Source: Callorhinchus milii
Taxonomy: Eukaryota
Length of the DNA stretch: 64,000 bases
Assembly (NCBI RefSeq): GCF_018977255.1
Contig: NW_024704742.1
Span: forward strand, 91,948,001-92,012,000
Reading direction: 5' to 3'
Part shown: positions 5,587-58,769 of the stretch, in pieces
Layout: each line of letters begins with the position of its first letter
Numbering within the stretch: position 1 is the stretch's first letter
Notes under the pieces: model-generated
Database searches by the model: none
What the model saw: the letters and a program-made list of their open reading frames with translations, nothing else
Told to the model about the DNA's origin: nothing
Position numbers and translations under genes: made by a program

Positions 5587-5668
5587 CTGCATATATCAAT
5601 TTTTGGCCAGCCACTGGGAATGCATCTTTTCCCTTTTCAGTTTCGATCTTCTCCTTCAACGCTTTCAC
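5587..5668 (-). CDS. RAD23B: RAD23B coding exon 2 (UBL domain)
   Basis: tttag|[28 protein letters not shown]|gtatta. 82 nt, nearly identical to vertebrate RAD23. Confidence 0.96.
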
Positions 5669-6332: not shown

Positions 6333-8765
6333 ACAGAATCATAGAATTATACAACACAGAAAGAGGCCATTCAGCCCATCGTGTCTGTGCCGGCTCTTTG
6401 AAAAGAGCTATCCAAATCAATCCCATTCCCCGCTTTCTTCCCATAGCCCTGCAAACTTGTCCTCCTCAAATAATTATCTACTTCTCTCTTAAAAGTTGTT
6501 ATCGAATTGGCTTCCACCACCCTTTCAGGCAATGCATTCCAGATCCGAACAACTCGCTGTGTGAAAAAATTTCTCCTCACCTCCCCTCTGTTTCTTTTAA
6601 CAACTATTTTAAATCAGTGCCCTCAGGTTACCGACCCACCCACCAGTGGAAACAGTTTCTCCTTGTTCACCCTATCGAATCCCCTCATAATTTTGAAAAC
6701 TTCTATTAAGTCTCATCTTCACCTTCTTTGCCCCAAGGAGAATAATCCTAGTGTCTCCAGCCTCTCCTGATAGCTGAAGTCCCTCATTCCTGGTACCATC
6801 CTGGTAAATCTCCTTTGCACCCTTTCCAATGCCTTGACATTCCTAAAGTGTGGGGCCCACAACTGAACACAGTACTTTAGCTGACCCCGAACCAATGTTT
6901 TATAAAGGTTCATCATAACTTCCTGACTTTTGTATTCTATGCCCCTATTTATAAAGCCTAGTATCCCGTATGCTTTTTTAACAGCTTTATCTACCGTCCT
7001 GCCACCTTCAAAGATTTACTTACATGAACCCCCGGGTCTCTCCGTTCCTTCACCTCCTTTAAGATTCCATCATCCAGCTTATATTGCCTCTCCTCATTCT
7101 TTCTCCCAAAATATTAATAATAATCCTTGCATTTGATATAGCGCTTTTCACGTCGGGAGGACGTCCCAAAGCGCTTCACTGTAAAGTGAATTGACTGTAT
7201 ATTTGTGGGCGAACGCGGCAGCCAATTGCGCACAGCAATGTCCCACGGTCATGGATTGAAAATGACCAATTTATTATTGGTTTTTTTTTAGCGCTATTAT
7301 ACTTCACTTTGGATTTCTCCACATTAAACTTCATCTGCCACATGTCTGCCCATTTTACCAGTTTGTCTATGTCTGTTTGCAGTCTGCTACTATCCTCCTC
7401 ACTGTTTATATTTTTCCTAGCTTAGTATCATCTGCCAACTTGGAAATTGTACTCCTGATACCCAAGTCCAGGTCATTTATATAGATCAAAAACAGCAGTG
7501 GTCCCAATACTGATCCTTGGGGGACACCACTGCACAGGTTCACCACTACTCTCTGCTTTCTGTCTTCCAGCCAGTTCTGTATCCATGCTGCCACTGTCCC
7601 TTTAATACCGTCGGCTTCTATTTTGCTTACAATTATCTTATGTGGCACTTTATCAAACACCTTTTGAAAATCCATATAAATTACATCAACTGCACTACCT
7701 TCATCCACCCTCTCCGTTACTTCATCAAAAACTATCAGGTTTGTTAGACACGATTTGCCTTTAACAAATCCATGTTGGCTGTACCAATTTTTCTAAGTGA
7801 AAATTTATTTTGTCCCAGATTATAGTCTCTAGAAGTTTCCCCATTACTGACGTTAGGCTGACTGGCCTGTAGTTCCAAGGTTTATCCTTCTGTCCCTTTT
7901 TGTACAGGAACATAACATTTGTAACCCTCCAGTCCTCTGGCACCACCCCAGTGTCCAAGGAGGATTGAAAGATTGTGGCCAACATCTCCGTTATTTCCAC
8001 CCTTACTTCCCTCAGTAACCTAGGACCTATCCCGTCCGGACTGGGTGACTTATCTACCTTGAGCACCGTCAATCTTTTTAGTACCTCCACTTGGTTTATT
8101 CTTATCATCCAATTTCTCTACCCTCTCCTCCGATACTGTAGCATTGGCTGCATCCTCATCTTTTGTGAAGACAGATGCAAAGTACTCATTCAGTACATCA
8201 GCCATGCCCTCTGCCTCCACAAGATGATTTCCTTTTTGGTCCCCAATTGGACACACCCTACCTTTGAGCAACCTTTCATTCTTTATATGCTTAATATGCT
8301 AAAATACCTTAGGGTTCCTTTTTATGTTACCCGCTAATCTTTTCTCGTACAATCGCCTTGCCCCTCTTGTTTCCTTTTTCAGTTCTCCTCTGTATTTTCT
8401 GTATTCTATTTGATTATCTTCTGTATTTTGGGACTGACATTTATCACAAGCCTCCTTTTTCTGTTTTAATCCCAATTTCCTTAGTCATCCAGGGAGGTTT
8501 AGATGCCCTAACTTTCCCTTTTGTGGGAATGTATTTGTTCTGTCCCTGAATTATCTCATTCTTGAAGGCTTCCCACTGTTTGTTAGCTGTTTACCTGCCA
8601 ATCTGTCTTTCCAGTCCACCTTGGCTAGGTCCCTTTTTAACTCACTGAAATTAGCCCTCTTCCAGTTGAGTATCTTCACCTTCGATTGCTCCTTAGCCCT
8701 TTCCATAAGTATTCTAAACCTGATGATGTTGTGATCACAGTTGTCCTGATGCTCTCCTGGACCCA
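6333..8765 (-). mobile_element. CR1 LINE, 5'-truncated and decayed, in RAD23B intron 1
   Basis: Frameshifted ORF2 pieces: [70 protein letters not shown]. Ends in a CR1 3' hairpin and ATTCTATG-type tail. Confidence 0.93.
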
Positions 8766-8952
8766 TTTAGTGCATCCACTTAGCTACCTGTCTCTGCTAT
8801 CTCACTGCCTCCACCCACACCTCCTTACACACCTTTGACTTTATCTTTCAGACATTCTGCCCCATTCCGTGTTTCGCGTCTATGTACACACAGGGTATTA
8901 TCTTCAGCACACGGCTACATGTTTACAGGGGCTGTGTGTGTGTTGCACTCAC

Positions 8953-9018
8953 CGGGAGCTCGGGCTCAATCTGGATGTGGAAGGATTGCTGTTGCAGAGT
9001 CTTCACTGTGATCCTCAT
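8953..9018 (-). CDS. RAD23B: RAD23 homolog B, coding exon 1 (start of ubiquitin-like domain)
   Basis: The minus strand reads GGCGAC-ATG then MRITVKTLQQQSFHIQIEPELP, followed by donor GTGAGT. The 66-nt, phase-0 exon matches the RAD23 N-terminus (MQVTLKTLQQQTFKIDIDPEET). Paralog B is assigned from adjacency to ZNF462. Confidence 0.9.
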
Positions 9019-9344
9019 GTCGCCTCCGCTCCCGGCCTCTCACTTGGGTCACTGAGGCATCCGCTGGTTATTCACTATAAACAGTCAGCAATGGTTAATG
9101 AGTTATAACTGATTAGTTAGTCACTTACACCAGGCTTACGCTGACCAATGAGTTATTGCTGGTTAGACACTTAGAGCGAGTCACCAAGTGAAAACAGCAC
9201 TAATAGCAGTCAGTAAGTTTAGTTGTTTAATGTAACAATAATACTTGCATTTGATATAGCGCTTTTCACCTTTTCTAGACGTCTCAAAGCGCTTCACAGG
9301 ACATACCGTACAGCGAATTAACTGTATAACTGTTGAAAGCCGAT

Positions 9345-12300
9345 TAACGCTGGTTACCATGTGAGCGCTCTGGTACCCGGGTGAGTTACTGGGTGAGTGC
9401 TGGTTAGTGCTGGTTACTAGGTGAGCAATGATTACCAAGTGAGAGCAACTGGGTATGAGCCTTCAGCAGCGACCATTGTCTGGATGAGGGTTAGTTACTG
9501 GGTAACACTCGTTGCTGGCTGAGTGCTGGTTGCCTGGTGAGTTCTAGTAATCGGTTGAGTGCTGGTTACCTGGTGAGCCCTGGTGACTGGTTGAGCGCTG
9601 GTTACCTGGTGAGACCTAGTGACTGGCTGAGTGCTGGTTACCTGGTGAGTCTGGTGACTGGTTGAGCGCTGGTTACCTGGTGAGCCCTGGTGACTGGTTG
9701 AGCGCTGGTTACCTGGTGAGACCTAGTGACTGGCTGAGTGCTGGTTACCTGGTGAGTTCTAGTAATCGGTTGAGCGCTGGTTACCTGGTGAGCCCTGGTG
9801 ACTGGTTGAGCGCTGGTTACCTGGTGAGCCCTGGTGACTGGTTGAGCGCTGGTTACCTGGTGAGCCCTAGTGACTGTTTGAGCGCTGGTTACCTGGTGAG
9901 CCCTAGTGACTGGTTGAGCGCTGGTTACCTGGTGAGCCCTGGTGACTGGTTGAGCGCTGGTTACCTGGTGAGTCCTAGTGACCGATTGAGCGCTGGTTAG
10001 CTGGTGAGCCCTAGTGACCAGTTGAGCGCTGGTTACCTGGTGAACTCTGTTGACTGGTTGAGCGCTGGTTACCTGGTGAGTTCTAGTAATCGGTTGAGCG
10101 CTGGTTACCTGGTGAGCCCTGGTGACTGGTTGAGCGCTAGTTACCTGGTGAGCCCAAGTGACCGGCTGAGCGCTGATTACCTGGTGAGCTCTGGTGACTG
10201 GTTGAGCGCTGGTTACCTGGTGAGCCCGAGTGACCGGTTGAGCGCTGGTTACCTGGTGAGCCCTAGTGACTGAATGAGCGCTGGTTACCTGGTGAGCCCT
10301 AGTGACTGGTTGAGCGCTGGTTACCTGGTGAGCCCTAGTGACTGGTTGAGCCCCGGTTACCTGGTGAGCCCGAGTGACTGGTTGAGCGCTGGTTACCTGG
10401 TGAGCCCAAGTGACCGGTTGAGCGCTGGTTACCTGGTGAGCCCTGGTGACTGATTGAGCGCTAGTTACCTGGTGAGCCGAAGTGACCGGCTGAGCGCTGG
10501 TTACCTGGTGAGCTCTGGTGACTGGTTGAGCGCTGGTTACCTGGTGAGCCCTAGTGACTGGTTGAGCGCTGGTTACCTGGTGAACCCTAGTGACAGGTTG
10601 AGAGCTGGCTACATGGTGACCCCTAGTGACTGGTTGAGCGCTGGTTACCTGGTGAGCCCTAGTGACTTTTTGAGCGCTGGTTACCTGGTGAGCCCTAGTG
10701 ACCGGTTGAGCGCTGGTTACCTGGTGAGCCCTAGTGACCGGCTGAGCGCTGGATACCTGGTGATCCCTAGTGACCAGTTGAGCGCTGGTTACCTGGTGAG
10801 CCCTGGTGACCGGTTGAGCACTGGTTACCTGGTGTGCCCTAGTGACCGGTTGAGCGCTGGTTACCTGGTGAGCCCCAGTGACTGGTTGAGTGCTGGTTAC
10901 CTGGTGAGCCCTAGTGACTGGTTGAGCGCTGGTTACCTGGTGAGCCCTAGTGACTGGTTGGGCGCTGGTTACCTGGTGAGCCCTAGTGACTGATTGAGCG
11001 CTGGTTACCTGGTGAGCCCTAGTGACTGGTTGAGCGCTGGTTACCTGGTGAGCCCTAGTGACTGGTTGAGCGCTGGTTACCTGGTGAGCCCTAGTGACTG
11101 GTTGAGCGCTGGTTACCTGGTGAGCCCTAGTGACTGGTTCAGCGCTGGTGACTGGTTGAGCACTGGTTACCTGGTGAGCCCCAGTGACTGGTTGAGCGCT
11201 GTTTACCTGGTGAGCCCCAGTGACTGGCTGAGCGCTGGTTACCTGGTGAGCCCCAGTGACTGGTTGAGCGCCGGTGACTGGTTGAGCGCTGGTTACCTGG
11301 TGAGCCCCAGTGACTGGTTGAGCGCTGGTTACCTGGTGAGCCCCAGTGACTGGTTGAGCGCCGGTGACTGGTTGAGCGCTGGTTACCTGGTGAGCCCCAG
11401 TGACTGGCTGAGCGCTGGTTACCTGGTGAGCCCCAGTGACTGGTTGAGCGCCGGTGACTGGTTGAGCGCTGCTTACCTGGTGAGCCCCAGTGACTGGTTG
11501 AGCGCTGGTTACCTGGTGAGCGCTGGTGACTGGTTGAGTGCTGATTACCTGGTGAGCGCCGGTGACTGGTTGAGCGCTGGTTACCTGGTGAGCCCCAGTG
11601 ACTGGTTGAGCGCTGGTTACCTGGTGAGCCCGAGTGACTGATTGAGCGCTGGTTACCTGGTGAGCCCAAGTGACTGGTTGAGCGCTGGTTACCTGGTGAG
11701 CCCTAGTGACTGGTTGAGCGCTGGTTACCCTGTGAGCCCTAGTGACTGATTGAGCGCTGGTTACCTGGTGAGCCCCAGTGACTGGTTGAGCGCTGGTTAC
11801 CTGGTGAGCCCCAGTGACTGATTGAGCGCTGGTTACCTGGTGAGCCCCAGTGACTGGTTGAGCGCTGGTTACCTGGTGAGCCCTAGTGACTGATGAGCGC
11901 TGGTTACCTGGTGAGCCCTAGTGACTGGTTGAGCGCTGGTTACCTGGTGAGCCCTAGTGACCGGTTGAGCGCTGGTTACCTGGTGAGCCCCAGTGACTGG
12001 TTGAGCGCTGGTTACCTGGTGAGCCCTAGTGACCGGTTGAGCGCTGGTTACCTGGTGAGCCTCAGTGACTGGTTGAGCGCTGGTTACCTGGTGAGCCCTA
12101 GTGACTGGTTGAGCGCTGGTTACCTGGTGAGCCCAGTGACTGATTGAGCGCTGGTTACCTGGTGAGCGCTGGTGACTGGTTGAGCGCTGGTTACCTGGTG
12201 AGCGCTGGTGACTGGTTGAGCGCTGGTTACCTGGTGAGCCCTAGTGACTGGTTGAGCGCTGGTTACCTGGTGAGCCCCAGTGACTGGTTGAGCGCTGGTT

Positions 12301-14612
12301 ACCTGGTGAGCCCCAGTGACTGGTTGAGCGCTGGTTACCTGGTGAGCACTGGTGACTGGTTGAGTGCTGGTTACCTGGTGAGCCCCAGTGACTGATTGAG
12401 CGCTGGTTACCTGGTGAGCCCCAGTGACTGGTTGAGCGCTGGTTACCTGGTGAGCCCCAGTGACTGGTTGAGCGCTGGTTACCTGGTGAGCCCCAGTGAC
12501 TGGTTGAGCGCTGGTTACCTGGTGAGCGCTGGTGACTGGTTGAGCGCTGGTTACCTGGTGAGCCCCAGTGACTGGTTGAGCGCTGGTTACCTGGTGAGCG
12601 CTGGTGACTGGTTGAGCGCTGGTTACCTGGTGAGCGCTGGTGACTGGTTGAGCGCTGGTTACCTGGTGAGCCCCAGTGACTGGTTGAGCGCTGGTGACTG
12701 GTGAGCCCCAGTGACTGATTGAGCCGCTGGTTACCTGGTGAGCCTCAGTGACTGGTTGAGCGCTGGTTACCTGGTGAGCCCTAGTGACTGGTTGAGCGCT
12801 GGTTACCTGGTGAGCCCTAGTGACTGGTTGAGCGCTGGTTACCTGGTGAGCGCTGGTGACTGGTTGAGCGCTGGTTACCTGGTGAGCGCTGGTGACTGGT
12901 TGAGCGCTGGTTACCTGGTGAGCGCTGGTGACTGGTTGAGCGCTGGTTACCTGGTGAGCCCCAGTGACTGGTTGAGCGCTGGTTACCTGGTGAGCGCTGG
13001 TGACTGGTTGAGCGCTGGTTACCTGGTGAGCGCTGGTGACTGGTTGAGCGCTGGTTACCTGGTGAGCCCTAGTGACTGGTTGAGCGCTGGTTACCTGGTG
13101 AGCCCTAGTGACTGGTTGAGCGCTGGTTACCTGGTGAGCGCTGGTGACTGGTTGAGCGCTGGTTACCTGGTGAGCGCTGGTGACTGGTTGAGCGCTGGTT
13201 ACCTGGTGAGCCCCAGTGACTGGTTGAGCGCTGGTTACCTGGTGAGCCCGAGTGACTGATTGAGCGCTGGTTACCTGGTGAGCCCAAGTGACTGGTTGAG
13301 CGCTGGTTACCTGGTGAGCCCTAGTGACTGGTTGAGCGCTGGTTACCCTGTGAGCCCTAGTGACTGATTGAGCGCTGGTTACCTGGTGAGCCCAGTGACT
13401 GGTTGAGCGCTGGTTACCTGGTGAGCCCCAGTGACTGATTGAGCGCTGGTTACCTGGTGAGCCCCAGTGACTGGTTGAGCGCTGGTTACCTGGTGAGCCC
13501 TAATGACTGGTGAGCGCTGGTTACCTGGTGAGCCCTAGTGACTGGTTGAGCGCTGGTTACCTGGTGAGCCCTAGTGACTGGTTGAGCGCTGGTTACCTGG
13601 TGAGCCCAGTGACTGGTTGAGCGCTGGTTACCTGGTGAGCCCTAGTGACCGGTTGAGCGCTGGTTACCTGGTGAGCCCCAGTGACTGGTTGAGCGCTGGT
13701 TACCTGGTGAGCCCTAGTGACTGGTTGAGCGCTGGTTACCTGGTGAGCCCCAGTGACTGATTGAGCGCTGGTTACCTGGTGAGCGCTGGTGACTGGTTGA
13801 GCGCTGGTTACCTGGTGAGCGCTGGTGACTGGTTGAGCGCTGGTTACCTGGTGAGCCCTAGTGACTGGTTGAGCGCTGGTTACCTGGTGAGCCCCAGTGA
13901 CTGGTTGAGCGCTGGTTACCTGGTGAGCCCCAGTGACTGGTTGAGCGCTGGTTACCTGGTGAGCACTGGTGACTGGTTGAGTGCTGGTTACCTGGTGAGC
14001 CCCAGTGACTGGTTGAGCGCTGGTTACCTGGTGAGCCCCAGTGACTGGTTGAGCGCTGGTTACCTGGTGAGCCCCAGTGACTGGTTGAGCGCTGGTTACC
14101 TGGTGAGCGCTGGTGACTGGTTGAGCGCTGGTTACCTGGTGAGCCCCAGTGACTGGTTGAGCGCTGGTTACCTGGTGAGCGCTGGTGACTGGTTGAGCGC
14201 TGGTTACCTGGTGAGCGCTGGTGACTGGTTGAGCGCTGGTTACCTGGTGAGCGCTGGTGACTGGTTGAGCGCTGGTTACCTGGTGAGCGCTGGTGACTGG
14301 TTGAGCGCTGGTTACCTGGTGAGCCCTAGTGACTGGTTGAGCGCTGGTTACCTGGTGAGCCCTAGTGACTGGTTGAGCGCTGGTTACCTGGTGAGCGCTG
14401 GTGACTGGTTGAGCGCTGGTTACCTGGTGAGCGCTGGTGACTGGTTGAGCGCTGGTTACCTGGTGAGCGCTGGTGACTGGTTGAGCGCTGGTTACCTGGT
14501 GAGCGCTGGTGACTGGTTGAGCGCTGGTTACCTGGTGAGCGCTGGTGACTGGTTGAGCGCTGGTTACCTGGTGAGCGCTGGTGACTGGTTGAGCGCTGGT
14601 TACCTGGTGAGC
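9345..14612. repeat. 36-bp minisatellite array, ~140 units, consensus GAGCGCTGGTTACCTGGTGAGC(CCYA/GCTG)GTGACTGGTT, built from two related 18-mers
   Basis: Directly visible. Regular from ~9520 to 14612, with degenerate copies at 9345-9520. Confidence 0.99.
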
Positions 14613-14619
14613 GGCCTGG

Positions 14620-15120
14620 TCGGTCGGTTGGTTGGTGTCTGCACCGAAGAAAACAAGTGGCTGCACATGCGCTGTGAGGCATCTCTCGAGCGGGCTGGTT
14701 GCGCATGCGCACGTGAGCGGAAACGGGTGGGGAGCGAGGTCGCGCTTGCGCATCAGCAGTAGTTTATTTCCGGTGCGGGGGGGGGAAGGGAGGTGACAAA
14801 TAGAGCGCGTGCGCACTGAGAGCGGCTGTCGGTGTGTTCAGCAGGTGACCGTTGTCGGGGCAGCAATGTGGCCGCATTGGGCGGGTTGACGCCCAATCGG
14901 GCGGGTTTTTACCCGCAGTGTGCGTGAAAAACTTCTTTGGGGGCGGATTTTCTTCGGGCGGTGTTTTTTTTTATTAAAAATTGAAACCCCGCAGCAACCG
15001 GTGTGGGTTTTTGTTTCTGCCCCATCACCTCCGCAGTTTCTAAGGCAATGAGCTCAGGCGGTCGCCCTGGTGTTCGGAGTGAGGCCCCGCGTGACCCTGG
15101 GCTGCTTTTGGGCTACTGTT
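14620..15120. promoter_or_regulatory. CpG-island housekeeping-type promoter, probably of RAD23B
   Basis: CpG-dense. Perfect NRF1 palindrome TGCGCATGCGCA at 14700-14711 overlaps E-box CACGTG at 14710-14715. Further NRF1-like sites at ~14663, 14742 and 14805, ETS-like TTTCCGG at ~14767, opposed CCAAT boxes at ~14876 and ~14893, and GGGCGG boxes. Confidence 0.8.
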
Positions 15121-17687
15121 TGGGCTACAGAACTATTTTCGTGTCTGGCGGACGGGGACGGTCACTACAGCAACAACAGCAACATTACCTTCACGTCGGG
15201 AGGACGTCCCGCGGCGCCGGACGCTCGGGGTTTTGGACCCGAGCTGGGGGTCGGGGTGGGGGTCGGGGTCGGGGAGGGTGGGGTCGGGGGGGGTGGGAGG
15301 TGATCGAAGGCAACGATCAAAGAGGAGGGTCTTGAGATGCGTCTCGAAGGCGAGAAGACCCTCCAGTTCTATGCTCCACAGCGTATCCCGTGAAACGCCG
15401 TCGACCTGTTTCCGCGACGTGATAAGCCGCGCTGTGTGTAAAAAGCAAAGGATTATTGTTATTATTACGACAACCACTTACATTTCTAGCGATCGCGCCC
15501 TTCATGCGGGGCAGCGTCTCGGAGCGTTTAATTGCCTTAGACGTGTCGGGGCAATGTTAGCCGTCGGATTTTGTTTGATCAGACTGTGTGACAACACGTC
15601 GCAAACACGTTTCATCGCAAGCGCTCAGAGACCTCATTCATTCTGTTTGAAGGGCGCTACATCTCAATGCAAGTTGTGCCTAAAAGTATTGGTTTGTGGC
15701 TTTCAAGTAGGTTATGTTTTTAAATTTAGACTAAAATACTGTAAGTGGTACTCACTTCCACTGGGTGTCTCGTTGCCTCAGGTCTGATCCTTCGAGATCT
15801 TATACGTGAACTACTTTGTAGCTACAATCTCATCGATTTCACGCCGCAATTCAATTTTTCCCCTTGATTTTAGCTTTGGCGAAATGCCCGTTTGGCTCAT
15901 CGGTAAGACTTGGAGATATAGACATGTTCTGAATCCTGCCAACCAAATCCCTAATGAGTAAGACAGTCGTAAATGGACAAATATTGTGCCGTGTATTAAC
16001 CACTACACAAATGGACAGTAATGAAAGAAGTGTCTTATCATGTTTGAAATGTCTCAAAAATGCTGTACAAGAAATTAGTGTTTGTTTTTATAGGCTCATC
16101 GGCCAAGCTTCCCTTCCAAATCACTGGCGCCTGGGTGTAGATATTGTGTGAGGACGGGCTGGTGCTTGGCTGTGATAATGCCAGTAGATGAACAACTTGC
16201 TCAGCGCACAAATGAAGAACAGATACTTGGAGAATGTTTGGAATCTGTAAATTTGTACGTTAGTTATTATCTCCAGAAGATGAGAAAAGGGAGAGCTCAC
16301 TGGGAATAGATCAATATACACCAACAAAACTGTTCATAGAGTAAAGCTGGATATTGCCAAAGTACTCAGTAATAATAATAATAAGTAAACTTAAAGTTGC
16401 TCTTTACTCTCCCCTTCCACTGATATTCTTTAATATATTTGGTGAAAATACGTTCTCGTATATCTTCACTGAAGCAGGTCTCTGTCTAGGCCAAATGATA
16501 TCTGGAGCGGAAGAGGGGAAGGGGGATGTTTCAAACTTGTTTTCAACAAAACAGTGTTTCCAGTCTGTGCTTTGAAACTGGACCACACATTCTGTTCACA
16601 GTCTGCTGGCAACAATTGTAGTTTCAAGCATGAAATGACCCTGGCTTACTTCGATGGGCAGAAAGGGCTGCCCATCCATAAACAGGCATTTTAATGTCAG
16701 ACATTCTTTTCAGTGCTCATTAATGTTTTGTATAACACCAATCAGAAATGACAGCCTTGATGCTAATGACCATTTAGGTGGTGTTCAGGTTGAATCACAC
16801 TTTCCAGTATATATGGCTTTAACACTGTAGTAAATAAAACCAACCTATATATAGTACTCCCACGACTATTTATTTATCTGTTTTTCTGAATCTGTAAGTG
16901 CTATCTAACCTTGCATGAACCATGATTTGTCCAGATATATAAAATTAGTGTACGTGTAAGTGTCATGCAACTGTGTTTGTGTCATGATTCACCAAGATTT
17001 GTAAACTTTGCAAATGATCTTCATTAAAAGAGAAAACATATCAAAACAAAATCAACAACTTGCATTTATATTGCGCCCTCCACATCAGTCGGCATTTCAG
17101 AGCGCTTAACAATGGGGAGTCCAAGGCCGAGCCGGGGAGGGGGAAGGTGACCGTAGGCGCGGTCAAAGAGGAAGGTCTTCAGGCGCGACCTGAAGATGGG
17201 GAAGGAGGGGGTGAGGTGAAGGGGTTGAGGGAGAGAAAATCAAAGCAGTACTGAAGCACTGTCGAACAATTCAAAAGTTTAGCCAAATATTTCCAAAATG
17301 TCAAATAAAAACTGAACGATGACTGCAGCATTACATTAGACAGAGAAATGCTTAAAACCAAACCAAAAAGTGGAGGGCTTGCAGAGAACATGAAATGAGT
17401 CACTTGAATTAGAGTATCATCTGGGTTCTCTGCATGTAGATAGAACATGATCTAAGGCAGGATGGCTCTGTCGCCTTTGCAGTGGAAGTGTTGGGTGGTC
17501 AGATTAGGTGTCAGCCTGGCTCAGTTGGTAACACTTTCACTTCTGAGTCAGAAGGGTATGGGTTCAAGCATCGTGCCACAACATTACAAGAGGGATGTTG
17601 AGCTCATTAGCGAGCTTGATGCTCCAATTTAGTGCTGGGGGAGCGCTGAATCAACAGAGGTGCTGGCTTTCGGCTTTGAACCAAGGT

Positions 17688-57200: not shown

Positions 57201-57529
57201 TTTTAAATCATCACCTTCTCATCCTTTCTCCATATCTCTTACTTAACAAGTACCTAGCCATCTCCCTTTAAAAACTCGTGAATCTATTCTGTAATTATAG
57301 CATTCTGGGGGCAAGATTTGTTTTTGTTTTTTAAACTGGCTTTATCTTTAAGCAGCTTAGCAACTTTTTTTCTTTAAAAAGATCATTCAAAACTGCCGAG
57401 AGCTGATGTCAGGGGTTGTCAGCCAGAGGGTACAGAACTGTATGTCCCACAACCACAAACTCAAATCTGGTTTGGCTTCACAAAGGATCTCATTTGCACT
57501 GATCAATCACTGCCCGGCGTTTCTCTTAC

Positions 57530-57791
57530 CTGAACCCAGTAAAAAACGAGCAATCCTTGCACTTGTGCAGCTTCTTCCCACAATGCCGGTCTCGATAGTG
57601 GCGCCTCATGCTTTGAATATATTCAGAGTTAAACTGACAGAATTCACAAGTGAAGTGCCCTTTGGTTACTTGTTCAGCTGGAGCAGCAGGTGATGGCACT
57701 GGCCCAGGGCTGGAGAGGTTCCTTGCCATGGCAGCTGTCTGGTAATGGTTAAGCTGTTGCTGGACGTCCGGTGGCTCCGAATAAGAAGAAT
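57530..57791 (-). CDS. ZNF462: ZNF462 coding exon (DSSYSEPPDVQQQLNHYQ...CEFCQFNSEYIQSMRRHYRDRH...CKDCSFFTGF)
   Basis: Contains the diagnostic ZNF462 motif SSYSEPPDVQQQLNHYQ. atgcag|...|gtaaga, 262 nt. Confidence 0.96.
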
Positions 57792-58769
57792 CTGCATGTG
57801 AAGAACTGTCAGTTACATGCCAACTAGATAAAACGTGAAGCTTTCTTTCACTGGAACAGCGTTTCTCTTTCCCACTAATCTGTGAATAACTATTTAAAAC
57901 TCTGAGGTTTAACTTGCTTTGTACAGTCATTGCTAGTTTTACTGTGGGCGTGCATGTGGACTTATCACCCTATTGTTTGTTGTAGGAAAATAGAAACTTA
58001 GAAATCTACAGCACAGAAGGAGGCCATTTGGCCCATCGAGTCTGCATCCGCTCACACAGCAAGATCAATTTAACCCCACTGCCCCACATTATCCTCATTC
58101 CCCTTCAAGCCCCTCTCTTTCATTTGTGGACTCTAAGAGTTAAATTGCCTCCTTCTGCTCTGTAGATTTCTACGTTGTAAAATAATAACAACTGTGTAAA
58201 GCAAGTCTATGCTTCTGCAAACGTGTCAAAGATTGATGGGAAAGCAAGAAGGCTTTACTGACAATGGCAGAATTTCTATTATAAACACTAGTGGGGGGAG
58301 GGAATAATAAACAAGAACAAATGAGGGTCGAACAACCAACTGGTGATTATGCTCCTTGGGGTTGGGGGGGATGTAAGCCGGGTCTTCTTGGAACTGAACT
58401 GGATCAGTGGCTTCTTTTTGTAGTCCAGTTCCTGAGCCAGGCGGGTCTGCAGTTTTCCAGGGCGCTGATGATGACAGCACAGCACAGCCTGGCTCATCAA
58501 CAGGACCTGGAAGGGCAGAGCAGTCACTGGGGACAGGGAATTATCCTACTCAGCTCCTGTTAACCCTGCAAGCCAAAGCTCTAACCGGTAGAGTGGTCCT
58601 TGCTGGACATTCAGCAGCAAGACTCACTGCACCTAAGCACACACTTTGTTAGTGTTCAAGCAGGAATTAACATTTCCCATCCATTTGGCAAATATCACAA
58701 ATTAGACCCAAACGTCTTCTCCGTTCATTTAATACATTAGGCTCTGGCAGCATCAACCTCCATGGTTGC

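What the first reader, a model, noticed from the sequence alone, without database searches (positions are those of the whole stretch)
9019..14960. A 5-kb minisatellite separates the RAD23B CpG-island promoter from its start codon
Seen: the only clear CpG-island/NRF1 promoter lies ~5.6 kb upstream of the RAD23B ATG, and almost all of the gap is one 36-bp array abutting the promoter. Known: mammalian RAD23B has its ATG in a CpG-island first exon. Inference: the array expanded inside the leader, so it is either a huge repetitive 5' UTR or a new 5'-UTR intron. Its copy number could tune expression of a DNA-repair and proteasome-shuttle gene.
Basis: partly seen in the sequence, partly recalled or inferred. 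Interest (0 to 1): 0.85.

Follow-up and report, generated by a model that had tools for sequence, protein, structure and literature searches.

The report
Minisatellite spliced out of RAD23B leader
In an elephant-shark DNA-repair gene, a 5-kb repeat between the promoter and the start codon is cut out of the RNA at the first of about 130 identical splice signals; this is a known kind of repeat, and here it may have created the intron that it fills.

Summary
A 36-bp array (142 copies, 9515-14612, this locus only) lies between the window's one strong CpG island and the ATG (9018) of a minus-strand RAD23B-like gene. One contig joins island base 14604 to 9074 and removes a 5,529-bp GT-AG intron. Contigs from two more runs stop at the same base with extra letters (3 of 3 RNA-type runs, 2 studies), while a DNA-type run is continuous. 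So the array is intronic, and the leader seen is about 150 nt. The first unit spans the exon-intron boundary, so the donor CAG|GTAACC occurs 127 times and the join seen uses the first. This is the known human F7 IVS7 / amphioxus 'mirage' kind of minisatellite. The scan noted that kind before at three other genes of this genome. There is no coding signal. The intron looks derived: both paralogs keep the ATG inside their CpG islands, and faint repeat traces reach the acceptor. Birth by tandem duplication is therefore possible (about 0.45), but no ortholog could be compared. Copy-number control of expression and the true array length are untested.

The parts
14501..15750 (.). CpG island holding the promoter
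   Evidence: o/e 0.99-1.21, GC 0.50-0.60; RNA leader comes from its edge
14701..14961 (.). Promoter-type motifs just upstream of the RNA 5' ends: NRF1-type 14701, CACGTG 14710, CGGAA 14718 and 14768, CCAAT 14876 and 14893, GC boxes 14879-14956 (labels recalled, function untested)
14604..14696 (-). Non-coding first exon (exon 0); 5' end approximate, taken from contig lengths (14664, 14694, 14696 if colinear)
14598..14606 (-). Splice donor used, CAG|GTAACC, inside the first repeat unit
   Evidence: X1 loose end matches 14606-14635 at 29 of 30 letters, the only hit in the window
9075..14603 (-). 5,529-bp GT-AG 5'-UTR intron
9515..14612 (.). 36-bp minisatellite, about 142 units, each a dimer of two 18-mers (12 of 18 alike) with one donor copy; most uniform at the donor end
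11567..14297 (.). Internal higher-order duplication: 11567-12680 and 13185-14297, offset about 1.62 kb, 20 differences in 1.1 kb
9345..9514 (-). Decayed older units of the same repeat
   Evidence: 0 of 1000 shuffles and 0 of 1000 genomic windows reach the score
9230..9330 (.). High-copy interspersed repeat tail inserted in the intron
   Evidence: about 40 listed matches across the genome; very high contig depth
9075..9228 (-). Rest of the intron with the acceptor TTATAG; faint repeat-like words
8953..9074 (-). First coding exon: 56 nt of UTR, ATG at 9018, 22 codons; a 9-mer of the repeat follows the acceptor at 9070
5587..5668 (-). Second coding exon; joined to the first in RNA
   Evidence: X1 loose end before 8949 is this exon's sequence; ubiquitin-family hit below cut-off

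Best explanation
The array is a minisatellite that spans a splice donor and fills a 5.5-kb intron in the 5' leader of this RAD23B-like gene, and it is spliced out of the RNA seen, at the donor of its first unit. Shown: RNA from the CpG island carries about 60-90 nt of a non-coding exon joined at 14604 to the acceptor at 9074; 126 further identical donors follow in the intron and no join from them was seen. Inferred: the first donor likely wins by the 5'-to-3' selection described for human F7, which would make the mature leader independent of copy number, so the array would be close to neutral. Inferred: it likely keeps growing at the donor end by slippage or unequal exchange. Inferred, about even odds: the intron itself likely began as a tandem duplication of a leader segment holding CAG|GT.
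For:: contigs lie on 8949-9076 in 3 of 3 RNA-type runs (X1 depth 268, X2 24, X4 133; 2 studies) and carry 59, 91 and 89 more letters. X1's printed letters match the unique flank of unit 1, and X1's other end is the next coding exon. None of the three covers 9086-9215, while DNA-type X5 runs straight through. The exon end and the units share the last 10 nt; CAG|GTAACC occurs 127 times. Mismatches rise toward the acceptor end (Spearman -0.52, p 2e-10, 130 full units). There is no synonymous excess in any of six frames. Precedent: PMC1557585 and PMC3087553.
Against: Only X1's joined letters were printed. For X2 and X4 the join to the island is inferred from the same stop and from their small share of island words. 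The runs are 'RNA by guess', although their exon-exon join behaves as RNA. Contigs drop rare forms, so minor use of later donors is not excluded; two known human cases do use the next donors. No reads were laid on the island itself, so the start site is approximate. Neutrality and the selection mechanism were not tested here.
Confidence: 0.8

Rival explanations
1. Origin rival: the intron is older than the repeat. A short leader intron (about 150-200 nt) already existed in this lineage, and only its donor junction was later amplified.
For: Local alignment of 9075-9228 to the array is not significant (100 and 147 of 1000 shuffles reach it). The acceptor lies 3 nt before the point a precise duplication predicts. 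Earlier notes of this scan report junction amplification inside existing introns at three other genes of this genome (not checked here).
Against: Both paralogs have the ATG inside a CpG island. Repeat 9-mers cover 18 bases of 9019-9228, a value that 11 of 5770 background windows reach. The 8-mer profile count is reached by 8 to 42 of 1000 shuffles, depending on threshold.
Confidence: 0.5
2. Array length tunes RAD23B output: more units delay transcription or bind U1 and lower or change splicing, as argued for the human ABCA7 VNTR.
For: 127 donor copies lie directly behind a short first exon. Passages of PMC13747324 say that the ABCA7 VNTR beside a donor can cause aberrant splicing.
Against: No length polymorphism or expression data were available. 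The spliced contig is far deeper than intronic contigs in X1 (268 against 5-10; contig depth is a poor measure). F7 pseudo-donors do not compete. The ABCA7 paper could not correlate splicing with length.
Confidence: 0.15
3. The array is real but shorter than assembled, and the 1.6-kb internal duplication is an assembly error.
For: Two 1.1-kb blocks differ at 20 places, 3 of them single-G indels in G runs. Reads show single-base differences from the window near by (9025 in 4 of 4 runs, an added G at 9503 in 2 of 4).
Against: The other 17 differences are substitutions, 12 of them swaps between unit types, which fits real divergence after duplication. X5 confirms the acceptor-side junction in DNA, and RNA confirms the order of the two exons.
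Confidence: 0.2
4. The array stays in the mRNA as a 5.6-kb repetitive 5' UTR.
For: One X1 contig covers 9273-9560 at depth 9.5.
Against: That depth resembles intron-1 cover (4.9) and fits unspliced RNA or DNA. 0 of 3 RNA-type runs cover 9086-9215, and all three jump at 9076.
Confidence: 0.02
5. The array is a coding exon for a mucin-like repeat (VTRAHQVTSAQP), alone or fused to RAD23B.
For: One minus-strand frame has no stop within the units (0 of 43 distinct variants make one), an ATG at 14753 is in that frame, and the half-unit deletions keep frame.
Against: 11 of 43 variants are synonymous against 0.27 expected (p 0.64). Eight units of 35, 37 or 17 bp break the frame. The ATG lies upstream of the RNA 5' ends seen, and the array is spliced out.
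Confidence: 0.02

Closest known systems
Human F7 IVS7 37-bp VNTR and kin (6-16, CBS, LMNB2, PDGF), Borensztajn et al. 2006, PMC1557585 (abstract and Introduction read)
   Same: The first monomer spans the exon-intron boundary, identical donors are repeated in the intron, and the most upstream donor is used.
   Different: 127 donors here against 5-9 units in F7 and up to about 25 in the other genes listed. Here the intron lies in the 5' UTR directly behind the promoter, and 95% of it is recognisable repeat. Polymorphism is not shown here.
Amphioxus 'mirage' minisatellites (Adh3, globins), PMC3087553 (passages read)
   Same: Tandem copies of an exon-intron boundary that leave normal splicing intact; end units excluded from homogenisation; proposed as a route to new introns.
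   Different: A jawed vertebrate, a non-coding leader and far more copies. Here both ends of one intron may derive from the repeat.
[quoted passage not shown]
   Same: The unit holds AG|GT, the donor comes from the upstream copy, and the spliced RNA reads roughly like one unit.
   Different: The acceptor is offset by 3 nt and only faintly repeat-like, and no outgroup without the intron was seen. PMC2812944 already lists 8 repeat-driven intron changes in human UTRs.
Human ABCA7 intron 18 VNTR, PMC13747324 (passages read)
   Same: A long VNTR directly at a splice donor.
   Different: ABCA7 has population data and reported aberrant splicing; none exists here.

Membership tests
Donor-spanning minisatellite (F7 IVS7 / mirage type) | First unit spans the real exon-intron boundary | tested here: met
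   Join at 14604|14603 inside unit 1; last 10 exon bases equal those of later units
Donor-spanning minisatellite (F7 IVS7 / mirage type) | Identical donor sequence repeated in the intron | tested here: met
   CAG|GTAACC 127 times in 9345-14620
Donor-spanning minisatellite (F7 IVS7 / mirage type) | The most upstream donor is the main one used | tested here: met
   X1 contig continues into the unique flank of unit 1; contigs cannot exclude minor use of later donors
Donor-spanning minisatellite (F7 IVS7 / mirage type) | Copy number varies between alleles | not testable with these tools
   Only assembled short-read contigs were served
Donor-spanning minisatellite (F7 IVS7 / mirage type) | Later donors take over when the first is mutated | not testable with these tools
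   Needs a minigene
Intron gained by tandem genomic duplication | Duplicated unit contains AG|GT and gives the donor from the upstream copy | tested here: met
Intron gained by tandem genomic duplication | Acceptor and following exon bases derive from the last copy | tested here: inconclusive
   Repeat 9-mer at 9070, 3 nt off the predicted place (74 of 5802 background windows as good); alignment across the acceptor reached by 50 and 71 of 1000 shuffles
Intron gained by tandem genomic duplication | Orthologs in outgroups lack the intron | not testable with these tools
   No other chondrichthyan genome is held; the two paralogs have the ATG in a CpG island, but their RNA was not examined; the intronless human leader is recalled
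Protein-coding tandem repeat | Kept in mRNA, open frame under selection | tested here: not met
   Spliced out; 11 of 43 variants synonymous, eight frame-breaking units
RAD23B ortholog | Next to ZNF462 in the same direction | tested here: met
   ZNF462-type exon at 57529-57969, minus strand (hits below cut-off); human neighbourhood from the search listing of PMC8183635 and recall
RAD23B ortholog | Groups with RAD23B in a protein tree | tested here: inconclusive
   Long branch, paired with the C29 paralog at 70% support; 81-84% identical to RAD23B rows against 77-80% to the other group over 185 columns

The most novel reading that the evidence does not exclude
A housekeeping gene gained a new spliceosomal intron in its 5' leader when a segment holding CAG|GT was duplicated in tandem. 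The first copy gave the donor and the last copy decayed into the acceptor, and the array has since grown at its donor end to about 140 units. The start codon was thereby moved 5.6 kb out of its CpG island with the mRNA almost unchanged. That would be a vertebrate intron birth with the whole age gradient still readable.
Probability: 0.45. Interest if true: 0.55.

Novelty: new member of a known kind. Interest (0 to 1): 0.33.

Why it matters
As it stands it is a large natural example of first-donor choice among about 130 identical sites, useful for splice-site-selection minigenes. If the intron was born from the repeat, it would be one of few vertebrate intron gains with a visible mechanism, in a lineage where gains are called rare (start of the abstract of PMC12357937 in the listing). 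It gives no evidence so far for a new way of regulating RAD23B.

Tried and rejected
Coding reading of the array: rejected; the Pfam hits on the open frame are low-complexity and below cut-off. Start site near 9050-9300: no promoter motifs there except one CCAAT, and all RNA-type contigs jump at 9076. Dispersed repeat family: the exact 22-nt core occurs only here; diverged copies were not sought. Local alignment of the acceptor side and of exon 0 to the array: not significant. The 8-mer profile also scored in 14620-14800 at two of four thresholds while exact words did not, so that test is weak. Faster change of the first coding exon after leaving the island: 13 of 21 residues match coelacanth against 18 and 16 for the paralogs, but the whole protein is on a long branch, so I make no claim. 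Tree: one block was dropped by a script error; rerun, still inconclusive. Shark orthologs: none named among the best 120 of 1214 hits or the best 120 of 675. No run was on record as RNA (eight are RNA by guess). No read alignment over the island was obtained, so the exact start and any opposite-strand transcript stay open. Literature: Callorhinchus + RAD23B gave 0 papers; RAD23B + untranslated + first exon + promoter + intron gave 0. PMC3466250 does not mention RAD23 in its main text; its supplements could not be read and may list the cDNA.

Full report
Observation. Tandem Repeats Finder gives a 36-bp array at 9515-14612 with 141.8 copies and 92% matches. Parsed into units it has 130 of 36 bp, six of 35, one of 37, one of 17 and five of 18; each unit is a dimer of two 18-mers alike at 12 of 18 places. 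A 22-nt core has 110 exact matches in the 992-Mb genome, and all 110 lie in this array. The only strong CpG island of the window, 14501-15750, abuts the array. It carries the window's only GCGCATGCGC and several other promoter-type words (labels recalled). The gene is on the minus strand with its ATG at 9018. Its exons match P0001, a protein named RAD23 homolog B-like of Callorhinchus milii whose longest contig has the length of G000:C1. A ZNF462-type exon lies upstream on the same strand. The genome has three RAD23 loci. The protein tree does not settle which is RAD23B, so the name rests on the record and on the neighbour.

What the RNA shows. One search listed 12 runs, none on record as RNA and eight RNA by guess. 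I laid three of those eight (X1, X2, X4; two studies) and one of the four genome-sized runs (X5) on 8800-9560. In 3 of 3 RNA-type runs a contig lies on 8949-9076 and then leaves the genome, with 59, 91 and 89 further letters. The 30 letters printed for X1 match 14606-14635 at 29 places and nothing else in the window within 8 mismatches. The join therefore runs from CAG|GTAACC at 14604 to TTATAG|TGAA at 9074, an intron of 5,529 bp. X1's other loose end is the next coding exon, so these contigs are spliced RNA of this gene. None of the three covers 9086-9215, whereas X5 runs through it. The letters for X2 and X4 were not printed; their join to the island is inferred. Their share of words from 14615-15420 (0.04, X1 0.08) is near the 0.03-0.07 that the short exon alone would give. 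If colinear, the contigs begin at 14664-14696, just downstream of the NRF1-type word, and the leader is about 150 nt. Contigs cannot fix a start site, and no reads were laid on the island itself.

What it is. The donor lies inside the first repeat unit: the last 10 exon bases and the first intron bases are what the array repeats, and CAG|GTAACC occurs 127 times. The X1 join uses the first, recognisable by its unique flank. This is the arrangement described for human F7 intron 7 and four other human genes, in which the most upstream donor is used (in two genes also the next ones). PMC1557585 explains this by 5'-to-3' selection (abstract and Introduction read). Amphioxus 'mirages' are the same kind (PMC3087553, passages). 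I was led to the F7 paper and the mirage name by earlier notes of this scan on MRPS18C, DCTN1 and SCRG1 in this genome; I read the papers but did not check those loci.

How it grew. Units are most uniform at the donor end and most changed toward the acceptor (Spearman -0.52, p 2e-10, 130 full units, four hypervariable columns left out). Clearly decayed units continue to about 9345 (0 of 1000 shuffles). A block of about 1.1 kb recurs 1.62 kb further on with 20 differences, which fits unequal exchange but could be an assembly error. Array and decayed units make up 95% of the intron; the rest is a high-copy repeat tail and about 155 bases before the acceptor.

Is the intron new? For: both paralogs have the ATG inside a CpG island (250 bp upstream: GC 0.68 and 0.64, o/e 1.57 and 0.84), while this gene's ATG is outside (GC 0.42, o/e 0.64). 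Human RAD23B having its ATG in the first exon is recalled, not checked. Two 9-mers of the repeat lie at 9165 and 9070, the second just after the acceptor; 11 of 5770 background windows reach that cover (k=8: 21 of 5770; k=7: 36 of 5770), and a profile count is reached by 8-42 of 1000 shuffles. Against: local alignment of that stretch is not significant, the region was chosen after looking, the acceptor is 3 nt off the place that a precise duplication predicts, and junction amplification inside old introns seems to recur in this genome (unchecked). Intron gain by tandem duplication of an AGGT-holding segment, often imprecise, is an accepted mechanism (PMC3443670, section read; PMC4974935, abstract; PMC2812944, passages). 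I put it at about 0.45 here; no shark ortholog could be read.

Other readings. One minus-strand frame of the units is free of stops, but 11 of 43 distinct variants are synonymous against 0.27 expected, eight units break the frame, and the array is spliced out. A retained 5.6-kb UTR is not seen. Tuning by copy number has a human parallel in ABCA7 (PMC13747324, passages), but no polymorphism or expression data exist here, and F7 pseudo-donors do not compete.

Verdict. The feature is real, and the gene structure is now supported by RNA. It is a new, unusually long member of a known kind of minisatellite. Two literature searches found no paper on this locus; database transcript models, which I could not see, may already show the non-coding exon (cDNA-type accessions). 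The interest lies in the possible intron birth, which a comparison across chimaeras and sharks would decide.

Noticed in passing
window 14682, 14668 and 9060 (minus strand): The spliced leader has three upstream ATGs, giving short frames of 34, 23 and 3 codons that all stop before the main ATG; two are in frame with it. The shortest contig begins downstream of the first two.
   Followed up: partly
window 9025, 9503, 8912: Reads differ from the window: 9025 T>A in 4 of 4 runs, an added G at 9503 (2 of 4) and at 8912 (2 of 4), so the assembly may hold small errors here.
   Followed up: no
whole gene, P0001: This RAD23 is fast-evolving: its best listed relatives are about 56-63% identical over the full length, and no shark protein is named among the best 120; long branch in the tree.
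   Followed up: partly
G000:C1, C21, C29 (L004, L003, L005): Three RAD23 genes in this genome; the C21 copy shares residues with the fish 'rad23ab'-type proteins.
   Followed up: partly
window 15860-15910 and about 16080-16100, plus strand: Exon-like pieces (acceptor, short body, GTAAG donor) seen by eye downstream of the island, which might belong to an opposite-strand transcript.
   Followed up: no
window 9515-14612, plus strand: Each unit also reads as a strong donor on the plus strand (CTG|GTGAG, 134 times).
   Followed up: no
L013:4066-4584: The C29 paralog has a 57-bp minisatellite (9 copies) at the start of its first intron, about 55 bp behind the donor.
   Followed up: no
window about 15170-15400: A CpG-rich piece inside the island resembles by eye the interspersed repeat ends at about 17050 and 20080.
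   Followed up: no
window about 6400-8780: Broken LINE-like reverse-transcriptase remnant in the first coding intron, recognised by eye from translated frames.
   Followed up: no
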